From assembly GCA_964016885.1 (NCBI GenBank), contig OZ024742.1, positions 270,444,001 to 270,508,000 on the forward strand: 64,000 nt of DNA. The letters run 5' to 3'. This stretch comes from Eledone cirrhosa. Lineage: Eukaryota. Below the pieces are notes generated by a model. That model was not told the DNA's origin. It saw only the letters and a program-made list of their open reading frames with translations, and searched no databases. How positions within the stretch are numbered: position 1 is the first letter of the stretch; each line of letters opens with the position of its first letter. Positions 1,770-55,188 of this stretch are shown here, one piece after another. The translations under genes and the position numbers were made by a program.

Positions 1770-2223
1770 ATTCGGGGATTGTAACGTCTAATTACTGTAG
1801 GTTCACCAAAGTGAGCGCTCGTAATTTCAAGTAGGTATACTGTTGCTGTACTAAGCAGAATGTAATCATAATAATAATAGTTGCAATAGGTGTCAGGAAT
1901 ACACTAGGCATATATCAGAAACAATACTGAAGAAAAAGGAAAAATAATAATAATAATAATAAAAAGAACGAGATGATAGATCTTCATTACATTTATTGAG
2001 GCGTGACGGGTGTTTCGTGATTGATCAGTTCAATAAATGTAAATAAGTTCTAACACTTCGTCCTTTTTATTTACTATTATTAGAAATTGGAATAAATGCT
2101 CTGAAATAGCGATATATATGTGAATATAGACATAGAATATTCGAAAATATTCTGTATGTTTATAATAAACATTTTGAAGACCTAATCGCTATAGAATAGA
2201 ATACGTCACGTATTACAATTAGA

Positions 2224-2310
2224 TTCTCGATAAAAGCAAGGGAAGTAATCTACGCGTTTCATTCTTGTTAGAAATCTTCAGGACTACATATCCAGTGCTT
2301 TTATCGAGAA
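2224..2310 (-). ncRNA. Type I hammerhead ribozyme (array 1)
   Basis: Minus strand: GTAGTC-CTGAAGA-TTTCT aaca AGAAT-GAAA-CGCG-TA-GATTAC, enclosed by the perfect 15-bp arms TTCTCGATAAAAGCA/TGCTTTTATCGAGAA. Confidence 0.88.
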
Positions 2311-2533
2311 TGACACAGCTAGAGACTTATAGAATACTTAGCTGTGTACAGGAACTGGTTTGAAAGAGCGGTTGCCGGTCCGGCAGAAATTAGAAATTGG
2401 AATAAATGCTCTGAAATAGCGATATATATGTGAATATAGACATAGAATATTCGAAAATATTCTGTATGTTTATAATAAACATTTTGAAGACCTAATCGCT
2501 ATAGAATAGAATACGTCACGTATTACAATTAGA

Positions 2534-2620
2534 TTCTCGATAAAAGCAAGGGAAGTAATCTACGCGTTTCATTCTTGTTAGAAATCTTCAGGACTACATA
2601 TCCAGTGCTTTTATCGAGAA
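2534..2620 (-). ncRNA. Type I hammerhead ribozyme (array 1)
   Basis: Same sequence as 2224-2310, shifted by 310 bp. Confidence 0.88.
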
Positions 2621-2843
2621 TGACACAGCTAGAGACTTATAGAATACTTAGCTGTGTACAGGAACTGGTTTGAAAGAGCGGTTGCCGGTCCGGCAGAAAT
2701 TAGAAATTGGAATAAATGCTCTGAAATAGCGATATATATGTGAATATAGACATAGAATATTCGAAAATATTCTGTATGTTTATAATAAACATTTTGAAGA
2801 CCTAATCGCTATAGAATAGAATACGTCACGTATTACAATTAGA

Positions 2844-2930
2844 TTCTCGATAAAAGCAAGGGAAGTAATCTACGCGTTTCATTCTTGTTAGAAATCTTCA
2901 GGACTACATATCCAGTGCTTTTATCGAGAA
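2844..2930 (-). ncRNA. Type I hammerhead ribozyme (array 1)
   Basis: Same sequence as 2224-2310, shifted by 620 bp. Confidence 0.88.
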
Positions 2931-3116
2931 TGACACAGCTAGAGACTTATAGAATACTTAGCTGTGTACAGGAACTGGTTTGAAAGAGCGGTTGCCGGTC
3001 CGGCAGAAATTAGAAATTGGAATAAATGCTCTGAAATAGCGATATATATGTGAATATATGTTTATTATAAACATACAGAATATTTTCGAATATTCTATGT
3101 CTATATTTACTATTAT

Positions 3117-3200
<84 letters not shown>

Positions 3201-3507: not shown

Positions 3508-3556
<49 letters not shown>

Positions 3557-3682
3557 CAGAAGGGATATTCAATTTGTTGGTAATTCAACAAATATAAATG
3601 TTTACAACTGATTCAGAGAAGTCGACAGATTTTCTGGAGTATAATATTCAATGATATTAAATAAATTCCATTTATTTAATAT

Positions 3683-3727
<45 letters not shown>

Positions 3728-3898
3728 AAAAGGTTTGACCCCGACGTCAGAGCTCAAGCAGTTTCGACGGCAATTTCTGGACCCAGAAATAGCTCTGCCG
3801 TCGGGTCAACCTTTTTCCTATTACCCACTTTACTACCCTAAGTATTGCGTAATCTGGTGCGTTATTGTCCATCTGGTTCCTCTACCACACCTCCTTCG

Positions 3899-3900
<2 letters not shown>
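3728..3900. repeat. Dispersed fold-back fragment of a PLE terminal-repeat family
   Basis: GACCCCGACG...GCCGTCGGGTC hairpin plus CCTATTACCCACT...CCTTCGTT. Related copies near 25195, 26420, 26741, 26990, 43875 and 47165, all next to (TA)n. Confidence 0.6.
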
Positions 3901-10550: not shown

Positions 10551-11049
10551 ATCATTATTAATATTATTATTATTATTATTATTATTTCCATTATTACTTT
10601 GATTGCGCATAATTACTGCTTTACCGAGCACATCTCTGTGTGCCTTGAGTATGAGCAATGCAGTTTTTGCTGTTTTTGCTAATGCAGCTGTCTAGTGATT
10701 GCGACTTAAACGACGAGCGGAGGAACACCTACATCCCACACCATTGCAACCACATTGGGCAGTTTCGTTGATAGTAGAACCAACAACAAATACAACGACA
10801 ATAAAAGCAACGACAAAAGTGGGAACACTAATGAGAACAACATTATCAAACACATTAGCACATCAGCAACATCACCAACAACAACAGCATAAACGACAAC
10901 ACCAACAGCAACAGCATGAACAATGACAAATCTATCTCAACATTGAGCAGCAAAACAGTAGCACCATAAATAATTTCAACAACATTACTTTCTCAACCAC
11001 AGCAACAAAGCATGAAATGCTATACAATTTCATTTTAACAGAAAATAAT

Positions 11050-11230
11050 TGTTTCTACTTTTGGCACAAGGCCAGCACTCATCCCAGTGCATTACTGGTA
11101 CTTTATTTTATCGAACCCGTAAGGATGAAAGGCAAAGTTAAGCTCGGCAGGATTTGAACTCAGATCGTAAAGGCCCGTAACTCCATGCTGCAAACCATGG
11201 CTTCTGACCCTCTAACGATACTGCCATCAA
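11050..11230 (-). mobile_element. tRNA-derived SINE (main family in window)
   Basis: Reverse complement of 57723-57903: A box TGGCAGTATCG, B box GAGTTCAAATCC, core GCCTTTCATCCTTACGGG..CGATAAA..AGTACCAG. Confidence 0.85.
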
Positions 11231-20329: not shown

Positions 20330-22070
20330 CGGGGGTATTTTTAAGAATATTTATTTATTTCCTTTACTGGTTTCAAGCTTCTTTTGCTGCTCCAATGTAA
20401 AATTGAGGTGGATGATTTGTCTGTTGTTCCGCATCTGGTTCGTGTTCAAAGGTTCTTGTATTTGCTTTCAAAAACGTGTCTCAGATTGTTGGGTTTTTTA
20501 AATGTGCAATTTGGTTGGTTGATCAGTGTCACGTGATTAAATACATTATATTTCGCGCCAATTCGTATTTGAAGGTTCTTTATTGTATTTGCCATTTTAA
20601 TTGTTTGTCACAGTCACATAACCGGCCATATATAGTATAGCTGTGAGAATGGGATCGTTTGTCATTGAAAGTGTTGTGCCAAACATAAGATAATGGTCAA
20701 GAAATTTGAGTGTGGGGAATACTTCTGGTTTAGTGAGTATGGCTGATGTAGTGCTGAGGTATCAAGGTTCAAACTCTCTATTGAAATGAATTTAATGTTT
20801 GTTTCCATAGCAGCGGCGATGGTGGTGGAAGTGTAGAAAAGAGAAATATATACATATTTTATTTTTGTTTCTGTCTGCCTTTTTGTGTGTGTAGCAAAAT
20901 GTTTTTTTATCGTATTGATAATAGAAATAAAATTGATTCCATTAGTAGATATGGAGAAGGTGTTTGTGTGTGTGTGTGTGTGCTTGTGGGTTGGCTGGAT
21001 GGATGGTTAGCATGTTATCGTGTTAACATATCAACGTATATTAAACTAGATTTAATGCTGGTATATATTTTTGAATAATCATATTTTCCTTATTTATTCG
21101 TATTTGGTCCGTTGTATTGTCAGTTGAAAGATAAAGTGGGACTTGGAATGTGGGTGTCTTATTGTTTGCGAATATGCATAGATGTACACTGAGTTGTATC
21201 TGTCATGTGCTATGGTCTCGTAATTGTCATTCTGTTTCTGAGGGTGAATTTAGTTTGCCCTATATATCTTCATTACATACTTTACATTTTATGGCATAAA
21301 TTTAATGTTTTGATAAGCAAGTGGAATTATATTTTACAACAAAATTGTGTCCTTATTTACATGTATACTTCGTGCCTTCAATGCGATGAGTGAAAGTTCC
21401 CCAATTAGAGCGAGCACATTTTTTTGTATGGTTGGATTTGGGGTTTGTGGTGTGTAATTTGGCATTGGTGAGTAATGATTTTGTGATTTAGGTTAATTTT
21501 TGCTTTGATTATTTTGTGTGTTTCAAGGTATTTTTCCATTATTGGGTGTTGTTACAATAGTGGGATCTTCTTGTGAATAATGTTGTATGCTTCCGTATTT
21601 CGTGGGTTGTGTGTTGAGATATATAATCAAATATTAGACGCAACTTGTGTTTGTTTCGAATTTCGTAATACTTCAATGTCTATTGCTTTAGCCCTTTTTA
21701 TTCCATTATCGATTAATAACGGTGGGTACTGTCTTGCAAGCATAATTTTCTTCAATTCTTGGAGGCTTTTATTTTGCCTTTCATAATTGGAGGCAATTGT
21801 GCAAATTCTTCTTGCTACATTGAAAGGGATGCTGGTCTTCATGTGATTTGGATAGCTGGGGGTGAATAGCAGGAATTGTTTAGAATATGTTGGTTTGTGG
21901 ATGTCAGGTTCTATATTTGTGTCTTTTTTATGATTAAGATGTCCAGAAATGGGAGTTGGTATTGACTGTATTGTGTATGGAATATGGTTATTGATGCTGT
22001 TGATTAAATTTTTGAATTCATTTAGTTGGTCGACTGTGTGACACCATAGAATAAGGTAGTCATCAAATGC
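20330..22070 (-). mobile_element. Degraded Penelope-like element (RT C-terminus, GIY-YIG, 3' region)
   Basis: Minus strand FDDYLILW, LPFLDILI, KTSIPFNVARRICTI..ELKKIMLARQYP (ORF 21627-21842) and YIGQT near 21255. Confidence 0.8.
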
Positions 22071-22074
22071 CCTA

Positions 22075-22509
22075 CCAAAATACAGATAACACTCAGTGCA
22101 TATCTAGACATGAGTGCAAACAATAAGACACCTAAATTCCAAGTCTTCCAACTTCATCTTTGCACTGACAATACGCCAGACCAAATACGAATAAATAAGG
22201 AACATATGTTTATTCCAATATATAGACAAGCAATAAAAATAGTTTAATGTTTGTTAATATATTAGCACCATAACATGCAAACCATACACACAAACATATA
22301 TATCCACACCTATATATATATACACACACACATAACACGTTTCTCTATATTCGAAAATAAATGACCAGAGCTAAATATACATTAACATACGTTAATATTT
22401 TAACACCTTCACATGCTAACCATACCGCCCACACACATAACGCCCTTCTCCATTTCTACTAATGGAATCAATTTATATTTATATTATCAAGTCGAAAAAG
22501 CGCTAAGCT

Positions 22510-23802: not shown

Positions 23803-23947
23803 TTATATATATATGTAGAGGGTATATTTAATTTGTTGGGATACAACAAGCGAAAGTATTTTTATAACTGATATGAAGCACTCAACAAATTATTGGAGTA
23901 ATATACAATATATTAACAAATGGTAACTGTATTTATAAAACCATATT

Positions 23948-24028
<81 letters not shown>

Positions 24029-24207
24029 ACATAGAAAACAATCACATTTTTGTTTAATGCATTTAATTGCAGACGATCGTGTCTTTCTGACAAATGTCTG
24101 GATCAATCGCAGCATATACAATGTTAAAAGTACAAAATAAAATCCTTACTTATTTATATAAATATAAATATCATTATTATTATTACACTCACATATATAT
24201 ATATGTC

Positions 24208-24460
24208 AGCTCAAAAGTGACACAGAGGAGACTGAGGTTGGCTGGACATGCTCACCGACATCCAGAGTTGACATTGCACTCAGTGCTCCTTTGGGAGCCC
24301 CTACATGGACACACTAGAAGAGGAAGACCAAAGTTAACATATGTTGATGCCCTAAGGACAGACACTGGTCTGTTGGAGTTGCAGGATATGGCAGCGATAA
24401 TGAGGGACAGAGACCGCTGGAGAGAACTCGTCCATGGATCTCGGGAATTTTACCCGCCTT
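24208..24460 (+). mobile_element. RTE/RTE-X LINE 3' end
   Basis: QRRLRLAGHAHRHPELTLHSVLLWEPLHGHTRRGRPKLTYVD...MRDRDRWRELV followed by a (TAGA)n tail. Confidence 0.8.
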
Positions 24461-25180: not shown

Positions 25181-25189
25181 TATATAACG

Positions 25190-26460
25190 TAGGAGTTGTG
25201 TTAAGGAGCCAGATGGAACCACAACGTACCAGAATACTTAATACTTACAGTAGTAGAGTGGGCTCAAGCCGTTTCGACGGCTATTTCTGGACTAAATTAG
25301 AATGTTTAGCGTGGTAAATATATAGCCGAACTTTTCAGGGGGTAATTCCTTATATGGGCAGGCTATATTTGTCAAGAGGATTGGTAAACATTTCTCGTAA
25401 ACGCAATTAATTCTATTATGGCAGTGGTTGGCTGAACTTGCCTGTAGAACAATGAGGGAGTGGGTGAAGCCACTAAGGATTGTATATGAAACCAGGCTAG
25501 AGGAAGTAGGCGAAAAGGGATTCTGGAGAAAATAGGTAAGGGACGTTATAGAATAGGTAAATCAATTGAGATTAGAAGATAATAAATAAATAAGAAAAAA
25601 TATATAAAAATATAAAAGTGGATAATAATAAGTGATAAAAAAAACTTTAGAGTTTAAAACAGTTGGTATATTTAGTTGGTGTTGCGTTTTCGGCCAATGC
25701 TATAGAATGGTTAATCCGCTGAGAATAGAAGATATTAAATAAATAAAAAAATGTTTGAAATTATAGAATTGTGTAGTAATAAGTAATAGAGAATCTCTGA
25801 GGTCTAAAACAGCTGCTATAATTAGTTGGTATTCCGTTTTCGGTCAATGCTATCTTTAATTTACTGGGGTGGGGGTACTGAGGTTATAAAGGCTTGATGG
25901 GCAGCCTCGCGATATGCGAAATGGGAAAAAGGAAAAGGAAGAGGATAGGGAGTGGATGGAAGTGATAGGAAGAGACAAAGGGAAGAAGAAAATAGAAAGG
26001 AAAAGAAAAGAGCTAATTCTACCTATGTTAGATGGGGTTTCACCCATCTTGTTCGGTAAGTGGGGAAAAGGAGGATGCTGCAGCCATTTTCTACCCACCC
26101 GGGTCATTAGGAGGTTTGAGGGCGAGATATGTCCTTCGCAATCGGTGTTTGCATGCAGTTACCAGTTCGTCTTTTTTGTTTAGCAGTTGGTCCTTAGAAT
26201 TTGCTGTATAGATATCACTTTCAACGCTTGACCGTCTCCACCCACTCCCTCATAGTTCTACAGGCAAGTTCAGCCACCCACTGCCATAATCACTTAATTG
26301 TCTTTACAAGAAATGTTTACCAATCCTCTTGACAACTACAATCTTCCCATATAAGGAATTACCACATGAAAAGTTCGACTATTTATTTAATACGCTAAAA
26401 ATGCTAAGTTAGTCCATAAATTGCCGTCGAAACGGCTTGAGGTCTGCCGTCGAGCATCAT
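25190..26460 (-). mobile_element. 5'-truncated Penelope-like element with inverted terminal repeat
   Basis: Minus strand NKKDELVTACKHR at about 26110-26185 resembles the PLE C-terminal LNKRSELxxxCRH motif; 25260-25480 is an inverted copy of 26236-26440. Confidence 0.65.
26361..26455 (+). ncRNA. Degenerate hammerhead ribozyme in PLE terminal repeat
   Basis: ACCAC-ATGAAAA-long stem II-GAAA(26429)-CGGC...GCCG-TC. The minus copy at 25261-25345 reads ACCCC-CTGAAAA; other copies give GGGGT after TC. Confidence 0.5.
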
Positions 26461-26515: not shown

Positions 26516-26679
26516 TATGTGTGTTGGAAAATGTGTGAGATACTTGGTACAATTGGGTATATTTGAAAAAAGCAAAACAATGACTTCATTTGTAGTTCTA
26601 AACAATTTGATTTAATTTTATAGTATTATAATATTAGGAGTTGGTATATCTACGAAGTCATCTTTTCCTATTTTCCAAA

Positions 26680-26743
<64 letters not shown>

Positions 26744-26866
26744 AACCAGTAAGACCCCGACAGCTGAGCTCAAGCCGTTTCGACGGCTAATTCAGCGTGA
26801 ACAGACTGTTAACTTCTCTCCCTTCTTTCGCCGAACAGTAGTAAGTGACATAGTCATTACATTAAA

Positions 26867-26932
<66 letters not shown>

Positions 26933-27121
26933 ACTTCACTTGTAGTTCTAAACAATCTGTTTTAATTTTATAATATTATGATACTGTCCAGAATTAGCCG
27001 TCGAAACGGCTTGAGCTCAGCTGTCGGGGTCTTACTGGTTCCTATTACCCACTCTACTACCTCAAGTATTGAGTACTTTGGTGCGTTATGGTTCACCTGG
27101 TTCCTTACCACATTTCCTTCG

Positions 27122-27290
<169 letters not shown>

Positions 27291-27409
27291 TATATATATA
27301 TATAAATATAGTTTTGCGAGGTTTTTTATATGAAATCGTGTGTCGAAACAAGATAGACAGACTGAATAAAAATGGCGTAGACATATAATACAACAGGAGG
27401 AAACGATAA

Positions 27410-27453
27410 CACCACTGACGATGTTGCAAATGTGCAACGAAATACTTATGATA
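27410..27453 (+). ncRNA. Hammerhead ribozyme-like motif (extra nucleotide after core)
   Basis: CACCA-CTGACGA-T-GTTGCA aatg TGCAAC-GAAA-TACT-TA-TGATA. Confidence 0.55.
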
Positions 27454-27697
27454 AACTATATATATGTGTTTGTGTCTATATTGTATCTGTATTATTTTTG
27501 ACCGTCGGTCAGTCAATGGCAACATTGAGGACCGAGTAAATTAGATTACCGATATAAAAGACACAGAAGCGAGAAGCGAAAACCAACCAAAGAGTGAGTG
27601 TGTTCTGTTATTAATTCTGGCAATATTACACAAATATGACCCTCCCCAAGTATAACAATATATATATATTTATATAAAGTATATATATATATATAAA

Positions 27698-27766: not shown

Positions 27767-27875
27767 ATATATATATATTTGGAAAATAGGAAAATAATGA
27801 CTTGGTAGATATACCAACTCATAATATCATAATATTATAAAATTAAAACAAATTGTTTAGAACTACAAGTGAAGT

Positions 27876-27917
<42 letters not shown>

Positions 27918-28295
27918 CGGTTTTAATGTAATGACTATGTCACTTACTACTGTTCGGCGAAAGAAGGGAGAGAAGTTAACAGTCTGTTCACGCTGATTGG
28001 CGATCATCGGATCCACGCCCCCCTGCCTCCTCCGAAAATTATTGAAGCTGGATTCTTATAGAATTCCAGGAATAATCAGGAGCTGATAATACAGAGCGAT
28101 TGACGGTCCAGCAAAAATTAGGTATTATGATTGGTGCTCTGCAATAGCGATGTATACATGAATGTCTGTATAGTATATTTGGCAATATACCTTATGTTTA
28201 ATTAAAAAATATTCAGAAGACCATACGCTATCAGTTTTAAAGTAGTGACTATGTCACTTCTTTTCGCCGAAAGAAGAGAGAGAAGCTGACAGTCT
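27918..28295 (-). mobile_element. Old relative of the retrozyme unit (about 1.2 units, period about 314 bp)
   Basis: Shares GCTCTG.AATAGCGAT, AGAGCG.TTG.CGGTCC.GCA.AAATTAG and CTTATAGAAT with the 311-bp unit; degenerate HHR CCGATGA..GAACAGACTGTT on the minus strand at about 27975-28015. Confidence 0.6.
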
Positions 28296-29611
28296 AATAT
28301 GTATATTTATATATATATATATATATATATATTAATTTCAAAAGCACTAAAGATTCGAGTCATTGTCTTATTGACATATGTTTCCGATTGCTTAAACCTT
28401 AGCATAGGGTCATAGAATTACAATTTCCAAACCTCAAAACTTTAAATTTTACCAATTTTAAATCTATAAAGTTTATAGTGATGCAATTTGACCTTCGGGA
28501 GTTGGTTCAATGTCTAAATCACCTGAGTTTATTTCTGCAGCTTCAATATTTCACATAGGTTGACAGTTCATTACTCATATATCATTCACTGTAACAGATT
28601 ACGTGAATACTCAAGAAAAATCATGATTTTGAGAAATCTCGTAAAACATTAGAGAATAGTCATTAACAAATAACGAATTAGATTTTGTTAATGTATTTAA
28701 AAAAACAACTTCCAAAAGCAATAGCTTCAAGGATTATTTATAAAGAGTTCGAGTGTAGTAGTGGTGTATGAATGGCAAGTTTTATGAAATCTGTAGAGAG
28801 GGAGGTTTTATATGGAAGGTATGTACGTGTGTATATCTGTTCTTTTTTTGTGTATATTCTTTTTTTTTTGTGTATATTCATTTCTGACGCTCATTTACAC
28901 ACACTCATTTACATACATGTAACTATACGTCGCAAATTGTGATCTTATTTGATTAAATTAACTATTACAGTAACAATATAACTTGTCTAATATAAATACT
29001 GGAAAACTTTAAAAACATTTAGCCCTTACACTGTCACTATGCAAAGATTGAAAGCGATACAAGAGTAAAGGTATGTATAATATTTAATTAAGACGGGATA
29101 TTGAAATGTTTGACATGACCTTCATCCCTGCACAGTGGTGTTATAAGCAGTAGTGCAATGTGCATATAACTGGTTCCACCCTTTACAACTAACATTCATC
29201 TGCCATAGGCAGGCAAACCGTTACGGTGACAGCAAGGTGTCGGATCAAAAGGTTTTCATTACGGTGTCCTTCTTTGGTGTAACGTTACTCGACAAATTGC
29301 GTAACCCGGAGATGAAAGTGTCACTAGAGAACCGTTACTTCTATGGCCGATACTATGGTCATGTGGTTACAATTTCACAGGAAAGAATCATCCCTGGACA
29401 GAATTTAAGGGCAAAACAAACCGGCAAGAGACCGAGGAGTAGAGATCGAGTTTGATAGTTCGATAACATCCATTATCTTGATTGGGGATCCAGCCGGTTC
29501 AGTTAGAGACGATGCTTCTGAGAGGACCCGCTGGATGAGTGTTTGACGTCTATGCCCCCAAGACACTCACTCTCAGATTTAAGTGGATGCAGAAGAATAT
29601 ATACATATGTA

Positions 29612-29727: not shown

Positions 29728-29758
<31 letters not shown>

Positions 29759-29759
29759 A

Positions 29760-30250
29760 ATGATATTAAATAATGGAAACTATATTTATAAAACCACATT
29801 TATTCTATTATATATATTTCAAGGGTACCAAAAACTTTGGTACGCTACCATCGGATACAATACAAAATATTTTATAAATATTTGACATGACCAATGATAA
29901 TATACCTTAACGGTTCAAGTTACCCTGGAAAGTGAAGGGAAGAGAGAAAACAGATATTTTAAATTATTAATATGAGTATGCAAAAGAGGTTTATATTAAA
30001 GGGCTGAAAAAAATATAAAGCTCATTTGCATACTCATATTAATAATTTTAAATATCTGTTTTCTCTATTCCCTTCACTTTCCAGGGATAACTTGAACCGT
30101 TAAGGTATATTACCTTTTTCATGTCAAATATTTATAAAACATTTTGAATTTTATCTGATGATAGCGTACCAACATTTTGGTACCCTTGAAATATATATAA
30201 TTGAATAAATATGGTTTTATAAATATAGTTTCCATTTATTTAATATCATT
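29760..30250. repeat. Fold-back inverted repeat (about 235-bp arms) carrying an HHR in each arm
   Basis: Arms about 29760-29997 and 30012-30250; plus-strand core CTGATGA at 30155 and GAAA at 30188. Confidence 0.75.
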
Positions 30251-30377
30251 GAATATCAGAGACTGTTGAGTGCTCTGAATCAGTTATAAACATTCATATT
30301 TATTTGTTGTATTTCCAACAAATTAAATATCCCTTCTACTTATATATATATATATAATATATATAATACATATATAG

Positions 30378-30640
30378 AGAAGAACACACAAAAAGGCGTT
30401 TTGTTCTCAATTAAAAGGGATAGAGAACCACTATAGTGAAATATATGGGGTATACGAAAAGTGGAGAGAATACACAAGTATTAAGAGGTAAAAGACCCTG
30501 TTATAAACGTGGGTATTTTACATTTTTCCTCTTAATTACTATGTATTTGCTCCACTTTTCATAGACGATATATTCTTCACTAGAGTGATTCTCTACATCT
30601 TTTCAATGAAAACATAACCTCTTTTCGTGTTTTCTTCCCT
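30378..30640. repeat. Imperfect fold-back inverted repeat (about 120-bp arms)
   Basis: GAAAAGTGGAG/CTCCACTTTTC, TTAAGAGG/CCTCTTAA and AGAGAACCACTATAGTGAA/TTCACTAGAGTGATTCTCT. Confidence 0.65.
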
Positions 30641-30728
30641 ATATACTGTATTATTGAGAGTCCGGTAATTTTTTCCTTGAGCTCATTAAATGACAGGGAT
30701 TAACGCGTGCATTTAACTCCGTTGTTTC

Positions 30729-31500: not shown

Positions 31501-32811
31501 ATATTGTTCCATATATTGGCCCAAATCTTTCACTATAGGGTGTTTAACCCCCTTTAGGGTGTCTTAATATTATTGAAATGAAGCGCAACACCCCAGATCG
31601 TGATATCTAGCTGAACACACACTGAATTTGCAATCATACAGAACACTAACATATGCTTGTACATGCATACTCAAACATACAGACATTATTTGCACACATG
31701 ACACACATGACCAGGAAACATACACAATCTCACTCTCACGTGCACATACACTTCAACACTCCAGCGCTTATACACTCACACACATCACATATAGCCCAAA
31801 CACGTGCATCATATTCACCATACACAACATACACACATCGCATCATACTAACACTTACATATGTATCACAGCACACACTCATGTACAAATGTATACAAAC
31901 ACACACACGCGTGCGACTGTATCATTTTGTCCAGTGGTGTCTTCTTCACATTTTCTGTGTGTAGCTCTGTCGCTATCTCTCATGAAATATATACTAATGT
32001 CTCCGTGTTTAAACAGTTACAGTAATATATACAATATAAACGACTTTTGATATGCTTGGGTGAGTAACTACTCATATATACACATGAGCACACACAAACC
32101 AACTTACATCCACTAACACACACATTATCACACACCATATACATACAAACAATATGCTTACACACCATATGCATGCAAGCATTCACGGAAATAAACACTA
32201 CGTTCGTTTGTGTGTTCTCATATATATATACATATATAAATCATGTCTATTTCTCACGAGAGAAATTAATTTATTTTGCCGACACAATTGAATTTATCAC
32301 TTCCACGCAATGGACATTGTAACTCGCCGTTTATAGATTATTTCTTGAACAGTCCGCAGTGGCTAGGGCTATTCGCTATCACCGTATAGAACATAGTAAT
32401 AACTGAACTGAGCTTTTAAAATCAGCAATGCTGAATACACAATGAACTCCAATATCTTCATTCCTATTACCTAACAGGACGATCAGAACTCATCAGTATA
32501 TAGTAGTGAAACATACATTTGTAAGTTAATATTACCGCACAGGAAACTGGCGATCAATGCGTACATATGACAAAAATGGCGTCCTGTGAGGCGAACACCT
32601 TCATCCTTTGTGAGTTATGTCCAACATTTAATTGGGGGTACCTTCTGGATAATTTGTGATAGATGTGGATGTCTTGCTGCATTGATAACACAACTTTTAC
32701 TGACACAATGTTTGTATCGTATTTAGGTCCAGCATAAAATTGACAAAAGTTTATTGCGAATGTCATATGTTATATTCACACAATATGTTTCCATTGTTCA
32801 CGAAAGACAAC

Positions 32812-32968
32812 GTCAACCTTGGCGGGATTTGAACTCACTCCCTTTACGGTCTGAGTTCAAATCCCGCCAAGGTTAACTTTGCCTTTCATCCTTACGGGGT
32901 CGATAAAAATAAAGTACCAGTAATGTACTGGGTAATTGCTGGCCTTGTGCCTAAAGTAGAAACAATTA
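32812..32968 (+). mobile_element. SINE with short inverted 5' segment
   Basis: GTCAACCTTGGCGGGATTTGAACTCA is the reverse complement of the downstream TGAGTTCAAATCCCGCCAAGGTTAAC; the core and tail are intact. Confidence 0.8.
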
Positions 32969-34671
32969 TTAATTAAGTGTTTTGGCCACTAGTACAATGC
33001 AGCATAAAATCTGTAAAAATATATTCGTGAAATAGTTAAAACCGGTAACAGCTCAAAATTGATGAATGATTCATGAGCTTAAATGTTATCAATTCTATTT
33101 AGACATACATTTAGCAATTGATAACATTTTAAATTAGCATGTAGATTCCTGCAAATTGTTTAGAAACTATTAGTAAGATAAATATATGTGATAAATAGGC
33201 TAATCTATTTTCATCGTACGGAACACTATAAAATCACATTGCATTTCAGTCAATTAAGATATGAAAAAACATTTAAAAGCCTGAACTTGTCATATGAAGG
33301 GAGTCATAAACAGACATGTATCCCTTAGATAAAAAGAAATATGCGAGAAACATTATAACTAACGTCCATACAACACATCAACTTTGAGAATTGCTTTCTT
33401 TTGAAAATGTAATCCAAGATAGTCGAAATAATTTGTAACTTGCTATTAATAGTTGAACATTTCTATATTTGAAATAAGAAAATAAGAAATAGCATTGATA
33501 TTGCGAAGTGTCCATGTACGTTAGAAGGTTCATTAGTCTGTGTTTAAGGAATCAAATGATATAATGTAATCTAAATATCCTTGGTGATAGAAGATTTATA
33601 TGTTGATTTACTAAGCGGTTTAAGTATTTAACGTTGGTCCTATGCCCGAAGGAGGACCCCATTAACGTTTTGACTCTTATATTTGACTGTTATGTGTTAT
33701 ATTATAATTGTACTGCGTTTCACTGGATATGGTAGATTAGTGCTTCGGTGAAATAAGTGCTTAGATGAATAACTTCGTATTATAAAGCTATTCCGAATAT
33801 TAGTATATATGTATGTTTGTGTTTAAAATGAGTCACGAATTTACCAAAATAGAATATTTTCAGTTTCAATACATGTAATCAAACGAAATCTACTCCCTAA
33901 GAAATGTATTTAACTCTAACAGAAAAGTGTATATATTGAAAATGAGAGAAATTTCAATTGTGACACGCATGACAATCGGAATGTCATGTACATGGGGTGA
34001 GCACTTTACTTTTTCCATTATTATGCATTCACTTAAACAGGAAATATATACGATTAATCAATAAGGAAATTTATCAACATATTGTCAGAAACTAAACATA
34101 CTACTGCATACACACTGATGGCCATTTGACCGAATATCTATAGATATATAACACTACAAACACAACGAAAATGTGCAATAGTAGCTTCTCTCATAAGACG
34201 GAATTATGTACACCAGAAGCTCAAAAACCTTGAACAAATCAACCATAAGTGACCAGGCATGTGCTGGAAAGGTGAAAGATATGTTTCTCCGAGGATCTGA
34301 TTCATAAATGCCATACCAAATTAATATTTTTCTTCAAAACTTTCGAAAGATCAAAATGGCTTGCCTGTATTTTGTATTCTGATTCGGACAAGGCAGCAGC
34401 GGATTAGTCAGATGAAAATAAACGGAGTGGAAAATGAACTAACTAGAGATCAATAAAAAAGCAACAGAGTATGAAACCTGACCCCAAAAAGTCAGAGGAC
34501 ACTAAAACATGAATGAATGAAAGGCGGAAAGAAAACTATAGTTGATATGGCCAGCGATTAAAAAGATATTACCCAGCACTCCCATTACATCGACAGCACA
34601 ACCACAGGACATATACACGATCATCATACCAGTAATCAGCATAAGATAATACTACTATTACTGCTACTAAT

Positions 34672-36615: not shown

Positions 36616-37376
36616 CCAATCTAAAGATACCAATCCACCGTATGCAGTTCTCTGGTAACAATCAGAGAGATAAAATCAGAGTGTATAGAGGAGCCAGAAC
36701 CAAATGGGAAAAAATGGTAAATAATGACACAAATGGGACCTGCCCCTTATATAGGAGCACATTTTGGAATAGAATAGACAGAACTAGAAATAAGGCTAAT
36801 AGAATAAACTCATGGTATGATAACAATAAATACCAGAGTCTAATGTTCATCGATACAACCCCTAGAGGTGAATTAGTTTACAGATGTAGAAGGGCCCTAG
36901 ATAAACATAAACTCAATATTAAGAAAGTAGAAAGACCAGGTACCTCCATAAAAAGACGTATTAGCAAGACATACCATTTTCAAAGAACTCCCTGTATAGA
37001 TAAGAAATGTATAATCTGTAAATTAAGCCCCCATATTAACTGTAAAACTAAAAATGTAGTATATCGCATAAGATGTACTGAAGGACAATGTAGAGATAAA
37101 AATATAGTGTACATAGGTGAGACAGCTCGTAGCATAGGGGAACGGATAAATGAACACTGGCGAGACTTTCAAGATAAAAAAGAATCATCAATACTCCACC
37201 ATCATGCTAAAATAGAACATAAGGGCAAATTAGAGAACATAGAAATAAAAATAGAATCTACACACAGAAAAGACGCAATGTTTAGACAAATCACAGAGGC
37301 AATAAACATAAATGAATTACAACCAAAATTAAATAGAAAATATGAGTGGAACAGCAACATCACAACTTGCAATTAA
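36576..37376 (+). CDS. Penelope-like element C-terminal ORF: linker and GIY-YIG endonuclease (5'-truncated)
   Basis: PLYRSTFWNR, C..KKCIIC, CKTKNVVYRIRC...VYIGETARSIGERINEH...RQITEAININELQPKLNRKYEW. Open for about 250 codons; the first about 13 codons derive from the CRE element. Confidence 0.88.
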   Translation: MDVTSAFKSVNWDTNLKIPIHRMQFSGNNQRDKIRVYRGARTKWEKMVNNDTNGTCPLYRSTFWNRIDRTRNKANRINSWYDNNKYQSLMFIDTTPRGELVYRCRRALDKHKLNIKKVERPGTSIKRRISKTYHFQRTPCIDKKCIICKLSPHINCKTKNVVYRIRCTEGQCRDKNIVYIGETARSIGERINEHWRDFQDKKESSILHHHAKIEHKGKLENIEIKIESTHRKDAMFRQITEAININELQPKLNRKYEWNSNITTCN

Positions 37377-37829
37377 GGACAAAATGAAAACACACACGCA
37401 CATAGAACAAACACCCAATGAGTAACATGTAAATAAACAAATAAATAAACGAATATAAACACACACAGACACCCGGATGTAACACATGCGCAAACTAAGC
37501 ACACAACACACATACTAAAACAAGATGGCGTGGGACAGAACAAAGGAGAGGCAATAAAAAAACAAACAAAATAATCCCCAGACACTGAAGAGGTCACATA
37601 ATGTGTGACGAAATAACTTTGACAATATATAAACAACCATCTGGTTGTGGAACCAACCAACAACCGGAAATTTATAAATTCCTAAATTTATAAAATTATT
37701 ATAATAAATTGAAGTGAAACAGCTGGTGCGTGTGTTTCTTATTGGCAACATGACCCTCCCAAAGTATAACAATATCGGTTTCAACGCACGTTTTCAGATA
37801 AAGACACTTGCTAAACAAATTCAGAAACG

Positions 37830-37830
<1 letters not shown>
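37377..37830 (+). repeat. Penelope 3' terminal repeat (pLTR) with HHR-like motif at 37579-37625
   Basis: CTGAAGA-G-GTCACA taatg TGTGAC-GAAA-TAAC-TT-TGACAA; a homologous solo copy lies at 48675-49025 on the minus strand. Confidence 0.65.
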
Positions 37831-37861
<31 letters not shown>

Positions 37862-37866
<5 letters not shown>

Positions 37867-38517
37867 GAAATGGTGCTCTGAAATAGCGATATATATATGA
37901 ATGTATATATAGTGTATTTTGCAATATACTGTATGCTTAATTAAAAGGATTTCGAAGACCTTACCCTATTGTTTTAGAGTAGTGACAGCCTTACTCACTT
38001 TAAATTTTCCACAAACAGGTGGAGTACTTTGCTTGGATAAGTACCAAAAAGTACGAAACAGAGAGCTCTGTCAGCTTTATCTCCCCTGTTTGCTGAACAT
38101 TTAAAGTAAGTGAGACTGTCACTACTCTAAAACAATAGCGTAAGGTCTTAGAAATGATTTTAATTAAGCATACAGTGTATTTCAAAATACAATATATATA
38201 TACATTCATAAATATATCGCTATTTCACAGCACCAATTCTAATTTTCAATTTCTGCTCTAACCGGCAACCGCTCTGTATAATCAGTTCCTGATTATTAGT
38301 AGAATTCTATAAGAATCAAACATTCGTGATTTTCAGCAACAGGTGGAGTTCTTGGCTTTGATATGTACCAATCAATACGAAACAGAGCTCTGTCCGCTCT
38401 CCTGTTTGCTGAAAATTTAAATTAAGTGAGACTGTCACTACTCTGACCAATAGCGAAAAGTCTTCGAAATGCTTTTAATTAAGCATACAGTGTATTGCAA
38501 AATACACTATAAATCCA

Positions 38518-38520
<3 letters not shown>
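37862..38520 (+). mobile_element. Old retrozyme relative: about 324-bp tandem with inverted 5' segment and two decayed HHRs
   Basis: Shares CGCTATTTCA.AGCA, AATTTCTGC...ACCGGCAACCGCTCT, CAGTTCCTG and ATTCTATAAG with the 311-bp unit. GAAA-CAGAG(AG)CTCTG-TC at 38055 and 38379. 37862-38020 is inverted relative to 38085-38245. Confidence 0.7.
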
Positions 38521-38572
<52 letters not shown>

Positions 38573-38608: not shown

Positions 38609-38814
38609 AAATATGTATATCTAAATATATATATATGAATGTATATATAGTGTATTTTGCAATATATATATTTATATATACAATTTACTTTTAGTAGTTA
38701 CAGATTTTGATATACCAGATTTTCCAGTTTAAAATCCCCTCCCAGTATCATTTTCCTGATGTCAACACTGCTACACATAACATTTACTCAATAATGGATC
38801 CATATCATATTATT

Positions 38815-40951: not shown

Positions 40952-40998
<47 letters not shown>

Positions 40999-41285
40999 AT
41001 GAAACAGTGCCTATTTAAATTAGCCTTTAACTTTAAAGACTCTCGTTTTGATAATTTACTAGATTTTCGTGACTTGTTGGAGGAATTATTATTTGTTGTA
41101 ACAATTCTTTCCAAAATTGGTAAAAGGCTATTAATTTGTAATTTGAAGAAATTGGATTATATTGATCCCCGTAAGTAACTGTTAATTTAATGTATCGACT
41201 CTGTAATTTCGCAACTAAATACCGCAAAACATATCGTCCGATTGTGTACCGATACTACGAATCCACTATCCTTTATATTATGCAA

Positions 41286-47114: not shown

Positions 47115-47168
<54 letters not shown>

Positions 47169-48271: not shown

Positions 48272-48419
48272 AAATAAAGGATTATGAGTTCATGCAATTG
48301 ACATATGTTTCATCACTATATATATATATAAATATATATATATAGATATATAAGTAGAAGGGGCATTTAATTTGTTGGAAGCCCAACAAATATTAATGTT
48401 TACTGGTGTAAATATACAA

Positions 48420-50932: not shown

Positions 50933-51501
<569 letters not shown>

Positions 51502-51504
<3 letters not shown>

Positions 51505-54500
51505 GTCTCTAGCTGTGTCATTCTCGATAAAAGCACTGGATATGTAGTCCTGATGAATTCTAACAAGAATGAAACGCGTAGACTTACTTCCCTTGCTTTT
51601 ATCGAGAATCTAATTGTAATACGTGACGTATTCTATTCTATAGCGATTAGGTCTTCAAAATGTTTATTATAAACATACAGAATATTTTCGAATATTCTAT
51701 GTCTATATTCACATATATATCGCTATTTCAGAGCATTTATTCCAATTTCTAATTTCTGCCGGACCGGCAACCGCTCTTTCAAACCAGTTCCTGTACACAG
51801 CTAAGTATTCTATAAGTCTCTAGCTGTGTCATTCTCGATAAAAGCACTGGATATGTAGTCCTGATGAATTCTAACAAGAATGAAACGCGTAGACTTACTT
51901 CCCTTGCTTTTATCGAGAATCTAATTGTAATACGTGACGTATTCTATTCTATAGCGATTAGGTCTTCAAAATGTTTATTATAAACATACAGAATATTTTC
52001 GAATATTCTATGTCTATATTCACATATATATCGCTATTTCAGAGCATTTATTCCAATTTCTAATTTCTGCCGGACCGGCAACCGCTCTTTCAAACCAGTT
52101 CCTGTACACAGCTAAGTATTCTATAAGTCTCTAGCTGTGTCATTCTCGATAAAAGCACTGGATATGTAGTCCTGATGAATTCTAACAAGAATGAAACGCG
52201 TAGACTTACTTCCCTTGCTTTTATCGAGAATCTAATTGTAATACGTGACGTATTCTATTCTATAGCGATTAGGTCTTCAAAATGTTTATTATAAACATAC
52301 AGAATATTTTCGAATATTCTATGTCTATATTCACATATATATCGCTATTTCAGAGCATTTATTCCAATTTCTAATTTCTGCCGGACCGGCAACCGCTCTT
52401 TCAAACCAGTTCCTGTACACAGCTAAGTATTCTATAAGTCTCTAGCTGTGTCATTCTCGATAAAAGCACTGGATATGTAGTCCTGATGAATTCTAACAAG
52501 AATGAAACGCGTAGACTTACTTCCCTTGCTTTTATCGAGAATCTAATTGTAATACGTGACGTATTCTATTCTATAGCGATTAGGTCTTCAAAATGTTTAT
52601 TATAAACATACAGAATATTTTCGAATATTCTATGTCTATATTCACATATATATCGCTATTTCAGAGCATTTATTCCAATTTCTAATTTCTGCCGGACCGG
52701 CAACCGCTCTTTCAAACCAGTTCCTGTACACAGCTAAGTATTCTATAAGTCTCTAGCTGTGTCATTCTCGATAAAAGCACTGGATATGTAGTCCTGATGA
52801 ATTCTAACAAGAATGAAACGCGTAGACTTACTTCCCTTGCTTTTATCGAGAATCTAATTGTAATACGTGACGTATTCTATTCTATAGCGATTAGGTCTTC
52901 AAAATGTTTATTATAAACATACAGAATATTTTCGAATATTCTATGTCTATATTCACATATATATCGCTATTTCAGAGCATTTATTCCAATTTCTAATTTC
53001 TGCCGGACCGGCAACCGCTCTTTCAAACCAGTTCCTGTACACAGCTAAGTATTCTATAAGTCTCTAGCTGTGTCATTCTCGATAAAAGCACTGGATATGT
53101 AGTCCTGATGAATTCTAACAAGAATGAAACGCGTAGACTTACTTCCCTTGCTTTTATCGAGAATCTAATTGTAATACGTGACGTATTCTATTCTATAGCG
53201 ATTAGGTCTTCAAAATGTTTATTATAAACATACAGAATATTTTCGAATATTCTATGTCTATATTCACATATATATCGCTATTTCAGAGCATTTATTCCAA
53301 TTTCTAATTTCTGCCGGACCGGCAACCGCTCTTTCAAACCAGTTCCTGTACACAGCTAAGTATTCTATAAGTCTCTAGCTGTGTCATTCTCGATAAAAGC
53401 ACTGGATATGTAGTCCTGATGAATTCTAACAAGAATGAAACGCGTAGACTTACTTCCCTTGCTTTTATCGAGAATCTAATTGTAATACGTGACGTATTCT
53501 ATTCTATAGCGATTAGGTCTTCAAAATGTTTATTATAAACATACAGAATATTTTCGAATATTCTATGTCTATATTCACATATATATCGCTATTTCAGAGC
53601 ATTTATTCCAATTTCTAATTTCTGCCGGACCGGCAACCGCTCTTTCAAACCAGTTCCTGTACACAGCTAAGTATTCTATAAGTCTCTAGCTGTGTCATTC
53701 TCGATAAAAGCACTGGATATGTAGTCCTGATGAATTCTAACAAGAATGAAACGCGTAGACTTACTTCCCTTGCTTTTATCGAGAATCTAATTGTAATACG
53801 TGACGTATTCTATTCTATAGCGATTAGGTCTTCAAAATGTTTATTATAAACATACAGAATATTTTCGAATATTCTATGTCTATATTCACATATATATCGC
53901 TATTTCAGAGCATTTATTCCAATTTCTAATTTCTGCCGGACCGGCAACCGCTCTTTCAAACCAGTTCCTGTACACAGCTAAGTATTCTATAAGTCTCTAG
54001 CTGTGTCATTCTCGATAAAAGCACTGGATATGTAGTCCTGATGAATTCTAACAAGAATGAAACGCGTAGACTTACTTCCCTTGCTTTTATCGAGAATCTA
54101 ATTGTAATACGTGACGTATTCTATTCTATAGCGATTAGGTCTTCAAAATGTTTATTATAAACATACAGAATATTTTCGAATATTCTATGTCTATATTCAC
54201 ATATATATCGCTATTTCAGAGCATTTATTCCAATTTCTAATTTCTGCCGGACCGGCAACCGCTCTTTCAAACCAGTTCCTGTACACAGCTAAGTATTCTA
54301 TAAGTCTCTAGCTGTGTCATTCTCGATAAAAGCACTGGATATGTAGTCCTGATGAATTCTAACAAGAATGAAACGCGTAGACTTACTTCCCTTGCTTTTA
54401 TCGAGAATCTAATTGTAATACGTGACGTATTCTATTCTATAGCGATTAGGTCTTCAAAATGTTTATTATAAACATACAGAATATTTTCGAATATTCTATG

Positions 54501-55128
54501 TCTATATTCACATATATATCGCTATTTCAGAGCATTTATTCCAATTTCTAATTTCTGCCGGACCGGCAACCGCTCTTTCAAACCAGTTCCTGTACACAGC
54601 TAAGTATTCTATAAGTCTCTAGCTGTGTCATTCTCGATAAAAGCACCGGATATGTAGTCCTGATGAATTCTAACAAGAATGAAACGCGTAGACTTACTTC
54701 CCTTGCTTTTATCGAGAATCTAATTGTAATACGTGACGTATTCTATTCTATAGCGATTAGGTCTTCAAAATGTTTATTATAAACATACAGAATATTTTCG
54801 AATATTCTATGTCTATATTCACATATATATCGCTATTTCAGAGCATTTATTCCAATTTCTAATTTCTGCCGGACCGGCAACCGCTCTTTCAAACCAGTTC
54901 CTGTACACAGCTAAGTATTCTATAAGTCTCTAGCTGTGTCATTCTCGATAAAAGCACTGGATATGTAGTCCTGATGAATTCTAACAAGAATGAAACGCGT
55001 AGACTTACTTCCCTTGCTTTTATCGAGAATCTAATTGTAATACGTGACGTATTCTATTCTATAGCGATTAGGTCTTCAAAATGTTTATTATAAACATACA
55101 GAATATTTTCGAATATTCTATGTCTATA

Positions 55129-55131
<3 letters not shown>
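51502..55131 (+). mobile_element. Retrozyme-like tandem array 2: about 11.7 x 311-bp units, 12 HHRs
   Basis: TAAGTCTCTAG at 51502, 51813, 52124 and onward (period 311). CTGATGA cores at 51550+311n up to 54971. The only difference noticed is T>C at 54647. Flanked by (TA)n. Confidence 0.92.
51521..51608 (+). ncRNA. Type I hammerhead ribozyme (first of 12 in array 2)
   Basis: TTCTCGATAAAAGCA ctggatat GTAGTC-CTGATGA-ATTCT aaca AGAAT-GAAA-CGCG-TA^GACTTAC ttccct TGCTTTTATCGAGAA; predicted cleavage after 51580. Confidence 0.92.

Positions 55132-55188
<57 letters not shown>

What the first reader, a model, noticed from the sequence alone, without database searches (positions are those of the whole stretch)
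2068..3119. Array 1 has a target-site duplication and 5' inversion: direct trace of retrotransposition
Seen: TATTTACTATTATTAG flanks both ends (2068-2083 and 3104-3119) and partly overlaps element sequence (ATTAG, TATT) as microhomology. On the ribozyme-sense strand the 5' end is an inverted piece of about 45 bp. Known: TSDs and 5' inversions are hallmarks of target-primed reverse transcription, and inverted 5' repeats are typical of PLE insertions. Inferred: the array is one insertion event.
Basis: partly seen in the sequence, partly recalled or inferred. Interest (0 to 1): 0.75.

Follow-up and report, generated by a model that had tools for sequence, protein, structure and literature searches.

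The report
Ribozyme repeat inserted like Penelope retrotransposon
A short self-cutting-RNA repeat was pasted into an animal genome from an RNA copy, and its two ends look like those left by Penelope-type retrotransposons, which points to the enzyme these repeats are thought to borrow.

Summary
Confirmed. The 16-bp duplication is exact, unique in the window and beyond chance. The inverted piece is an exact 50 bp (3058-3107), or 45 bp without the shared bases. The array is 3.16 identical 310-bp units carrying a type I hammerhead: a non-LTR retrozyme. Both target 3' ends run into antisense element sequence through 5- and 4-nt microhomologies. Array 2 and an older relative are also two-armed. In 3 of 3, one end lies at unit nt 129-141 and the other at nt 166-173; a fourth, one-armed copy misses both sites. 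This matches the Penelope-like element (PLE) pattern of an inverted arm plus a 30-40-nt tail at one end. Two other (TA)n-flanked families here follow the same rule (6 of 6 two-armed copies). Best reading: PLE-driven priming from both target strands, on a multimeric or circular RNA. Not shown: the empty site, the partner PLE (no sequence similarity to resident ones), and whether all three units arrived at once. Known kind of element; eight literature searches did not find this junction evidence in print.

The parts
2068..2083 (.). Left copy of the 16-bp target-site duplication; its last 5 nt are shared with the element
2079..3058 (-). Array 1 long arm: 3.16 identical 310-bp units, ribozyme sense on minus; outer (primed) end at unit nt 173 = site B (nt counted from the predicted cleavage site, array 2 numbering)
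2240..2294 (-). Type I hammerhead, copy 1 (array 1 variant: A at position 7, U-U at the base of stem II, 1-nt deletion in stem I); predicted cleavage between 2251 and 2250
   Evidence: span by period from copy 2
2550..2604 (-). Type I hammerhead, copy 2
2860..2914 (-). Type I hammerhead, copy 3
   Evidence: span by period from copy 2
3058..3107 (+). Array 1 inverted short arm, 50 nt exact, unit nt 80-129; outer (primed) end at nt 129 = site A; 1-nt overlap with the long arm at 3058
3058..3074 (.). Element-encoded 8-bp perfect hairpin at the inner end of the short arm; its centre base (3066) has the inverted orientation
3104..3119 (.). Right copy of the target-site duplication; its first 4 nt are shared with the inverted arm
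3122..3197 (.). (TA)38 tract beginning 2 nt after the duplication
1948..2082 (.). Older imperfect inverted repeat (83% over 53 nt) whose right arm ends in the duplicated sequence; in-window sign that the 16-mer is target-derived
51094..51504 (-). Array 2 inverted short arm, 411 nt = 1.32 units, outer end at nt 166 (site B), abutting (TA)n
51502..55132 (+). Array 2 long arm, 11.68 units of 311 bp with one private substitution (54647); outer end at nt 131 (site A; 9 of 10 match to the TA tract up to nt 140); 3-nt overlap with the short arm
37862..38525 (.). Older relative L3 (72-80% identical to the unit, decayed ribozyme core): inverted arm from site B (nt 167) to about 38008-38024, forward arm of about 1.6 units ending at site A; (TA)n on both sides
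27918..28295 (-). Older relative L4: about 1.2 units, one arm only, outer end near nt 60, i.e. neither site A nor B (the miss)
36618..37831 (+). 3' fragment of a PLE: GIY-YIG-type ORF end with a C-x4-C-x2-C motif (to 37376), then a pLTR with a minimal hammerhead (core at 37585), ending in (TA)n. Candidate class of mobiliser only

Best explanation
Array 1 is a young insertion of a non-LTR retrozyme, a non-coding tandem repeat with a type I hammerhead, made by the RT/GIY-YIG protein of a Penelope-like element acting in trans. Steps: (1) the target, at the edge of a (TA)n tract, was nicked on both strands 16 nt apart, leaving complementary 3' overhangs [inferred from the duplication]. (2) Each 3' end paired by a few bases with retrozyme RNA and primed antisense cDNA, one at site B (nt 173) and the other at site A (nt 129) [junction sequences shown; priming inferred]. 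(3) One cDNA ran up to 980 nt through the ribozyme site, so the template was an uncleaved multimer or a circle, or the RT jumped between monomers; the other ran 50 nt and stopped at a hairpin edge [extents shown; template inferred]. (4) The two cDNAs were joined head to head at a 1-nt overlap and the gaps were filled, which duplicated the 16 nt [inferred]. The '5' inversion' is therefore a second primed end at a preferred start site, not a random internal priming.
For: Exact 16-bp duplication beyond two nulls. Both target 3' ends are joined to antisense sequence, with 5- and 4-nt microhomology at their tips. 3 of 4 family copies in the window are two-armed; in 3 of 3, one outer end is at nt 129-141 and the other at nt 166-173. 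Six ends in two arcs: p = 1e-4 (uniform null) and 0.03 (microhomology-weighted null with 10 nt slack). The three B ends alone span 7 nt, p = 0.002, and site B is not among the ten best TA-matching sites of the unit. [quoted passage not shown] 4 of 4 copies lie within 6 nt of a (TA)10+ tract at one end, while 5.6% of the window lies in or within 20 nt of one. Two unrelated (TA)n-flanked families show one short end plus one tailed end in 6 of 6 two-armed copies. PLE fragments are resident. Array 2's inverted arm is itself 1.32 units, more than a linear cleaved monomer can template. No poly(A) at the 3' junction.
Against: No empty site seen. The unit shows no detectable similarity to the four resident pLTR-like sequences (scores 23-30, null maxima 36-39), so no partner is identified. 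The fourth copy (L4) ends at neither site; with it the uniform-null p is 0.006. Site A is the unit's TA-rich tract, so microhomology alone can explain ends there. A 16-bp duplication is longer than the 8-10 bp seen for rotifer PLEs (PMC3846280 passages) and equals the L1 peak of 14-16 bp (PMC2912911 passages). The one PLE studied in vitro starts at RNA sites not homologous to the target, whereas these junctions show microhomology. The tails of the two comparison families are 77 and 84 nt, longer than the canonical 30-40. The sites were defined from these same loci, and n is small.
Confidence: 0.7

Rival explanations
1. Same RNA-templated insertion, but by a LINE (L1-, RTE- or L2-type) RT through classical twin priming on one RNA, with the second primer annealing wherever microhomology allows.
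For: 16 bp is the L1 TSD peak, and twin priming gives microhomology at both outer ends and at the inversion junction. The arms are nearly contiguous modulo the unit: 6-nt overlap in array 1 and 66-nt gap in array 2. A LINE-type RT fragment lies at 59539-59853 (RVT_1, E 2.4e-7).
Against: No poly(A) or simple-repeat tail. The 3' end is internal, 173 nt past the cleavage site. The second primer is not at random positions: sites A and B swap roles between array 1 and array 2. In the two comparison families the arms duplicate the same sequence, which single-RNA twin priming does not give. For array 1 taken alone the two models cannot be told apart.
Confidence: 0.12
2. One target-primed cDNA, with the inverted arm made by fold-back self-priming at an element palindrome (the model proposed for rotifer PLEs), then joined to the other overhang by microhomology.
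For: The array 1 junction lies at the edge of a perfect 8-bp hairpin, and the L3 junction lies in the self-complementary ribozyme stem. PMC3846280 infers self-priming from palindromes at inverted junctions.
Against: The hairpin's centre base at 3066 has the inverted orientation, so it was copied within the short arm, not as the loop of a long-arm fold-back; a fold-back reading also needs a further 28-nt deletion. Array 2's junction is not at a palindrome; the nearest hairpin ends 11 nt away. Fold-back does not predict that the outer ends recur at fixed sites.
Confidence: 0.1
3. DNA-level origin: capture of extrachromosomal repeat DNA at a break, replication template switching, or an assembly chimera, with a duplication from staggered-break fill-in.
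For: Microhomology at all three junctions is also typical of end-joining (established knowledge). The units are 100% identical, so their number could be mis-assembled. The nearby region 26.7-28.0 kb holds an inverted duplication that includes flanking DNA.
Against: It gives no reason for both arms to be antisense from the target ends in 3 of 3 copies, nor for shared end sites in copies 20-28% diverged, nor for the same rule in two other families. A read fold-back artefact would give a centred palindrome and no duplication.
Confidence: 0.08
4. Sub-question, compatible with the best explanation: the insertion brought just over one unit (for example 1.16), and the array then grew in place by unequal crossover, as the 2026 preprint suggests for retrozyme arrays.
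For: All three array 1 units share three private differences from array 2, which expansion from one unit explains. bioRxiv 10.64898/2026.07.22.740005 proposes local amplification.
Against: Rolling copying of one circular monomer explains the shared variants equally well. Array 2's short arm shows more than one unit copied even in the minor arm. Even the smallest seed must cross the cleavage site.
Confidence: 0.35

Closest known systems
Metazoan non-LTR retrozymes (PMC7229834; review PMC7761336)
   Same: Non-coding tandem units in the 150-450-bp range, GC below 50%, a type I hammerhead in every unit with a weak palindromic helix III, a highly self-paired monomer (z -4.9), and a TSD longer than 4 bp.
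   Different: In the passages and sections read, no inverted arm and no fixed end sites are described, and the review says the repeats show no motif that reveals the mobiliser. Expression, cleavage and circularisation were not tested here.
EN+ Penelope-like elements, Neptune/Nematis/Naiad type (PMC8557442, PMC3846280)
   Same: Adjacent inverted copy at the 5' side, an extension at one end only, partial tandems, (TA)n bias that usually hides the TSD, and a hammerhead upstream of the end.
   Different: The array encodes no protein. Its hammerhead is the canonical type rather than the minimal PLE type. The TSD is 16 bp against 8-10 bp. No similarity to resident pLTRs.
Poseidon PLE of Anolis (PAc) in vitro (PMC11167929)
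   Same: Two internal start sites downstream of the ribozyme cut; both strands extended; AT-rich target; uncleaved RNA used as template.
   Different: PAc starts without target homology and about 85-92 nt past the cut (computed from the positions given). Here there is 2-10 nt of microhomology and the sites are about 130 and 170 nt past the cut.
L1 5'-inverted (twin-primed) insertions (PMC2912911)
   Same: TSD of 14-16 bp, microhomology at both outer ends and at the inversion junction, near-contiguous arms.
   Different: No poly(A); recurring fixed sites instead of variable internal priming.
Non-autonomous Chlamys PLEs of Chlamydomonas, e.g. MRC1 (PMC8557442, PMC9977147)
   Same: Non-coding passengers of PLEs that make multicopy head-to-tail insertions in microsatellites.
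   Different: They resemble their autonomous partner at the 3' end, and most Chlamys lack hammerheads.

Membership tests
Non-LTR retrozyme | Tandem repeat of about 150-450 bp, no coding capacity, GC below 50% | tested here: met
   310/311-bp units; no ORF of 100 aa or more within the arrays; regional GC 0.30-0.35
Non-LTR retrozyme | Type I hammerhead core in every unit | tested here: met
   Core, stem I (4 or 6 bp), stem II (4 or 3 bp), 6-nt loop 2, palindromic helix III and a GUA triplet in all 3 + 13 cores found. Rfam support is weak: 0 hits at the gathering threshold; HH9 E 0.23 for array 2; no hammerhead hit for array 1
Non-LTR retrozyme | Self-cleavage, expression as linear and circular RNA | not testable with these tools
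   Needs transcription assays or RNA data
Non-LTR retrozyme | TSD longer than 4 bp when present | tested here: met
   16 bp at array 1; unreadable at the other 3 copies
Non-LTR retrozyme | No LTR, primer-binding site or polypurine tract | not tested
   No LTR-like layout by inspection; no PBS or PPT search was run
PLE-type insertion | Inverted truncated copy adjacent at the 5' side | tested here: met
   3 of 4 family copies
PLE-type insertion | 30-40-bp tail at one end only (two start sites) | tested here: met
   A+B in 3 of 3 two-armed copies, spacing 35-44 nt; L4 misses. Slightly wider than the canonical range, and small n
PLE-type insertion | Bias for (TA)n or AT-rich targets | tested here: met
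   4 of 4 copies within 6 nt of a (TA)10+ tract at one end
PLE-type insertion | Start on the RNA without homology to the target (PAc in vitro) | tested here: not met
   5- and 4-nt microhomologies in array 1; 9 of 10 at array 2's right end; only 2-3 nt, near chance, at array 2's left end
PLE (autonomous) or derivative of a named PLE | RT + GIY-YIG ORF, or sequence shared with the pLTR of an autonomous partner | tested here: not met
   No ORF; no similarity of the unit to 4 of 4 resident pLTR-like sequences. Only this window could be searched
L1-mobilised retrocopy | 3' poly(A) tail | tested here: not met
   The 3' junction runs straight from element into the duplication
Any target-primed insertion | Orthologous empty site with one copy of the duplicated sequence | not testable with these tools
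   No eukaryotic genome collection available; no paralogous empty site in the window, only an inverted older arm

The most novel reading that the evidence does not exclude
PLE integration is intrinsically double-primed: one start site serves one target strand and a second start site serves the other. The 'inverted 5' pLTR' would then be a second 3' end and the 'tail at one end only' a rule (9 of 9 two-armed copies in three families here; 0.002 if the ends were independent coin flips). Retrozymes would carry this pair of start sites, and array 1 would record rolling-circle reverse transcription of a single circular monomer straight into the chromosome, with the 16-nt nick stagger readable only because it landed just outside the (TA)n tract.
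Probability: 0.3. Interest if true: 0.78.

Novelty: new member of a known kind. Interest (0 to 1): 0.55.

Why it matters
Which retrotransposon mobilises animal retrozymes, and whether their arrays arrive as multimers from RNA or grow in place, is stated as open: PMC7229834 calls PLEs 'a strong candidate', and the 2026 preprint, which rests on co-occurrence and pLTR phylogeny, says the mechanisms remain to be elucidated. Insertion junctions are an independent line of evidence that needs no sequence similarity to a partner. The two end sites give a cheap genome-wide test and name the RNA positions to use in an in vitro PLE priming assay. The element itself is ordinary for its class.

Tried and rejected
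Rfam at the gathering threshold: 0 hits in the window. The E-value scans gave only a weak HH9 hit for array 2 and chance miRNA-type hits. One scan of bacterial and archaeal genomes for the ribozyme core: 0 loci, as expected for animal DNA. Search for a paralogous empty site in the window: none. Similarity of the unit to resident pLTRs: none. The L3 unit scored 35-37 against three of the four pLTR-like sequences (0, 1 and 3 of 100 nulls reached the score); I treat this as unresolved after 12 comparisons, possibly just shared hammerhead core. Pfam on 9 of the 56 listed ORFs: one passed a curated cut-off (RVT_1 at 59539-59853); the PLE-like ORFs had no Pfam match to their PLE-like parts, and their assignment rests on the Atlas and on motifs. 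My GIY-YIG regular expression did not match; the motif is read by eye. A TSD for array 2, L3 and L4 could not be determined within (TA)n. Comparing L3's inverted arm with its two forward units by eye did not separate fold-back from double priming. My first hammerhead scan missed bulged PLE-type motifs, and a relaxed scan found them. Viral and metagenome contigs stayed unchecked. The host species was not determined.

Full report
OBSERVATION. The window is AT-rich, microsatellite-rich eukaryotic DNA, probably animal (inference from its repeat content). Between the copies lie 980 nt of a 310-bp unit (2079-3058; 3.16 units; no internal mismatch) and an exact 50-nt inverted piece (3058-3107). Two nulls address chance. 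Among 4000 random position pairs of the window at the same spacing, 14 gave a boundary-anchored match of 16 nt or more, all simple repeats, and the longest non-simple match was 10 nt. Among 20000 shuffles of the flanks with the true element ends kept, the longest was 14. The 16-mer is a degenerate (ATT)n run, but among 858 equally (ATT)n-like 16-mers only the two copies match it within 2 mismatches. It forms the end of an older imperfect inverted repeat (1948-2082) whose other arm follows it to 2082, which fits a target origin. A (TA)38 tract starts 2 nt after the right copy.

THE UNIT. On the minus strand each unit carries a type I hammerhead: conserved core, stem I, a 3-4-bp stem II with a 6-nt loop, a self-complementary 6-nt helix III and a GUA triplet. 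This is the canonical metazoan form with a weak palindromic helix III, reported to work as a dimer (PMC4209133 passages). Rfam does not call it at the gathering threshold and gives only E 0.23 to HH9 for the array 2 variant and nothing for array 1, so the assignment rests on the motif. The monomer folds far better than shuffles (z -4.9; 0 of 100). A second array of the same family lies at 51094-55132. Its 311-bp unit differs from array 1's at three positions, all inside the ribozyme (chance about 0.006-0.013, post hoc). Array 1 has a U-U pair at the base of stem II, a feature also described for a weaker axolotl ribozyme (PMC7229834 passage). By size, composition and ribozyme this is a non-LTR retrozyme (PMC7229834 section 13).

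JUNCTIONS. I numbered the unit from the predicted cleavage site (array 2 numbering; array 1 numbers are one lower). In array 1 both target 3' ends continue into antisense element sequence. The top strand enters at nt 173 through 5 shared bases (2 of 310 positions give as many). The bottom strand enters at nt 129 through 4 shared bases (9 of 310), or 6 of 7 with one mismatch. The arms overlap by 6 nt of unit sequence and share 1 base at the junction. There is no poly(A). Array 2 has the same build, which the finding does not mention: a 411-nt inverted arm entering at nt 166 (2-3 shared bases, near chance) and a 3631-nt arm entering at nt 131, where the flanking TA tract matches the RNA at 9 of 10 bases, the best such site in the unit. 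Its arms join at 3 shared bases with a 66-nt gap. An older relative at 37862-38525 (72-80% identical, decayed core) is again two-armed, with ends at nt 167 and nt 131-140. A short further antisense piece at about 38627-38665 also starts at nt about 140; I left it out of the counts because it may belong to the same event. A fourth copy, 27918-28295, has one arm and ends near nt 60: a miss. So 6 of 7 counted outer ends fall at two sites, A (nt 129-141) and B (nt 166-173), and each of the 3 two-armed copies uses one of each, the long arm being B in array 1 and A in the other two. The six ends fit two arcs with p = 1e-4 (uniform) or 0.03 (weighted by microhomology, 10 nt slack). With the miss (entered as nt 58) the uniform p is 0.006. 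The three B ends span 7 nt (p = 0.002), and B is not among the ten best TA-matching sites. Site A can be explained by microhomology with TA targets; site B cannot.

IN-GENOME COMPARISON. Two unrelated (TA)n-flanked families in the window behave alike. Family 2 (reference 30005-30340, hammerhead-like core at 30155): of 8 BLAST rows one is an internal self-hit; the other 7 arms end at reference nt 252 (3) or 335-336 (4), and 3 of 3 two-armed copies use one of each. Family 3 (reference 26986-27122, no ribozyme found): 8 of 10 rows end at nt 60 (3) or 137 (5), the other two are internal or truncated pieces, and 3 of 3 two-armed copies use one of each. Inner junctions differ among copies, so these are separate events. 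The outer site coincides with the reference end by construction, but those hits abut TA tracts there. Their tails are 84 and 77 nt, and their PLE nature is inferred from layout only. A real PLE fragment lies at 36618-37831: a GIY-YIG-type ORF end (Atlas 0.97; GIY-YIG on 13-18% of members of two top clusters) with a C-x4-C-x2-C motif, of the kind linked to (TA)n targeting in Neptune PLEs. Its pLTR has a minimal hammerhead, and it and a second copy end at the same point before (TA)n, while two partly related sequences end about 55 nt earlier. A second PLE-like ORF piece lies at 21630-22103. The retrozyme unit shows no similarity to any of the four pLTR-like sequences, so no partner is identified.

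MECHANISM. PLE insertions often carry an adjacent inverted truncated copy, a 30-40-bp tail at only one end and a (TA)n bias that hides TSDs (PMC8557442 passages). A purified PLE protein cuts and extends both target strands, starts at two internal RNA sites whose spacing is the tail, and uses uncleaved RNA (PMC11167929). Array 1 fits this: two nicks 16 nt apart, one cDNA from site B, one from site A, joined head to head. I put this at 0.7. Against it: the 16-bp duplication is L1-like (14-16 bp) and longer than the 8-10 bp of rotifer PLEs; the in vitro PLE needs no homology whereas these ends show it; one copy misses; n is small. LINE twin priming (0.12) fits array 1 alone equally well but not the recurring sites. 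Fold-back self-priming (0.10) is suggested by the hairpin at array 1's junction, but the hairpin's centre base has the inverted orientation and array 2's junction has no palindrome. A DNA-level or assembly origin (0.08) explains neither the polarity nor the shared sites. On the template: array 2's minor arm is 1.32 units, and any seed of array 1 must cross the cleavage site, so the RNA was a multimer or a circle, or the RT jumped. Whether all 3.16 units came at once cannot be read from sequence; later unequal crossover (0.35) and rolling copying of one circle both give identical units with private variants.

KNOWN AND NEW. Retrozymes, their longer TSDs 'when present' and PLEs as candidate mobilisers are published. 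A 2026 preprint adds co-occurrence and pLTR phylogeny, suggests local amplification for the arrays, leaves the mechanism open and contains no 'tail', 'junction' or 'priming'. Eight full-text searches turned up no paper describing inverted arms or fixed end sites in retrozyme arrays; one search returned none. The library lacks most subscription papers, and I saw no supplements: those of the preprint, of PMC7229834 (its Fig. S9 model) and of PMC11167929 (Figs S1B, S2) may bear on this. What I saw: bioRxiv 10.64898/2026.07.22.740005, parts 1-3 of 5 plus a term search; PMC11167929, parts 1-2 of 4; PMC7229834, passages and sections 13 and 17; passages only of PMC8557442, PMC3846280, PMC7761336, PMC2912911, PMC4209133, PMC9977147 and PMC8969392. 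Hammerhead position numbers and the end-joining remark are from my own knowledge.

VERDICT. The element is a new member of a known kind. The value lies in the junction pattern, which ties retrozyme insertion to PLE-type chemistry and can be tested genome-wide. Interest 0.55.

Noticed in passing
window 51094-51504 and 51502-55132: Array 2 also has an inverted arm, 1.32 units long, and both ends in (TA)n.
   Followed up: yes
window 2240-2294, 2550-2604, 2860-2914 versus 51537-51592: All three differences between the array 1 and array 2 units fall in the ribozyme (position 7, base of stem II, stem I). Array 1's variant may cleave less well, which would favour multimeric templates; untested.
   Followed up: partly
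window 29753-30340, 48353-48622, 3555-3692, 23815-23965: Family 2: (TA)n-flanked, two-armed repeat with a hammerhead-like core (30155) and an 84-nt tail at one end only.
   Followed up: partly
window 3723-3899, 47161-47321, 26739-27122, 43874-43982, 25187-25292, 26412-26452: Family 3: (TA)n-flanked, two-armed repeat with a 77-nt tail at one end only; no ribozyme found.
   Followed up: partly
window 26792-26983: Between the arms of a family 3 copy lies an inverted 98-100% copy of 27825-27996 (host flank, TA tract and the end of L4); 26578-26679 is also an inverted copy of 27778-27880. It resembles capture of neighbouring DNA, or a local rearrangement.
   Followed up: no
window 36618-37831 (+), 48675-48985 (-), 27400-27657, 47806-47997: PLE 3' fragment with GIY-YIG and C-x4-C-x2-C motifs and a minimal hammerhead (37585); a second pLTR copy; a further minimal hammerhead at 27415; ends at two points about 55 nt apart.
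   Followed up: partly
window 21630-22103 (-): Decayed PLE-like RT-to-HTH ORF piece (Atlas 0.96, HTH_animal on 78-87% of members of the top clusters).
   Followed up: partly
window 38627-38665: Short extra antisense piece of the L3 family starting at site A inside the TA/TG tract.
   Followed up: partly
window 1948-2082: Older imperfect inverted repeat of about 135 bp at whose right end array 1 inserted; identity unknown.
   Followed up: partly
window 44482-46077 (+): Two long ORFs (181 and 212 aa) without Pfam match; they look like a decayed DNA transposase by eye (recalled resemblance, untested).
   Followed up: no
window 59539-59853 (-), 24091-24459 (+), 29147-29452 (+): LINE-type fragments: RVT_1 at E 2.4e-7 for the first; the other two are LINE-like by eye only.
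   Followed up: partly
window 30363-30654, 40720-40956, 32802-32887: Further imperfect inverted-repeat elements near TA tracts, not examined.
   Followed up: no
window 11044-11226, 32839-32971, 41284-41467, 49453-49769, 57726-57912: A multicopy interspersed repeat of about 180 bp at 80-98% identity, SINE-like in size, not examined.
   Followed up: no
window 48231, 50118: Two further hammerhead-core-like hits with weak stem II, probably chance.
   Followed up: no
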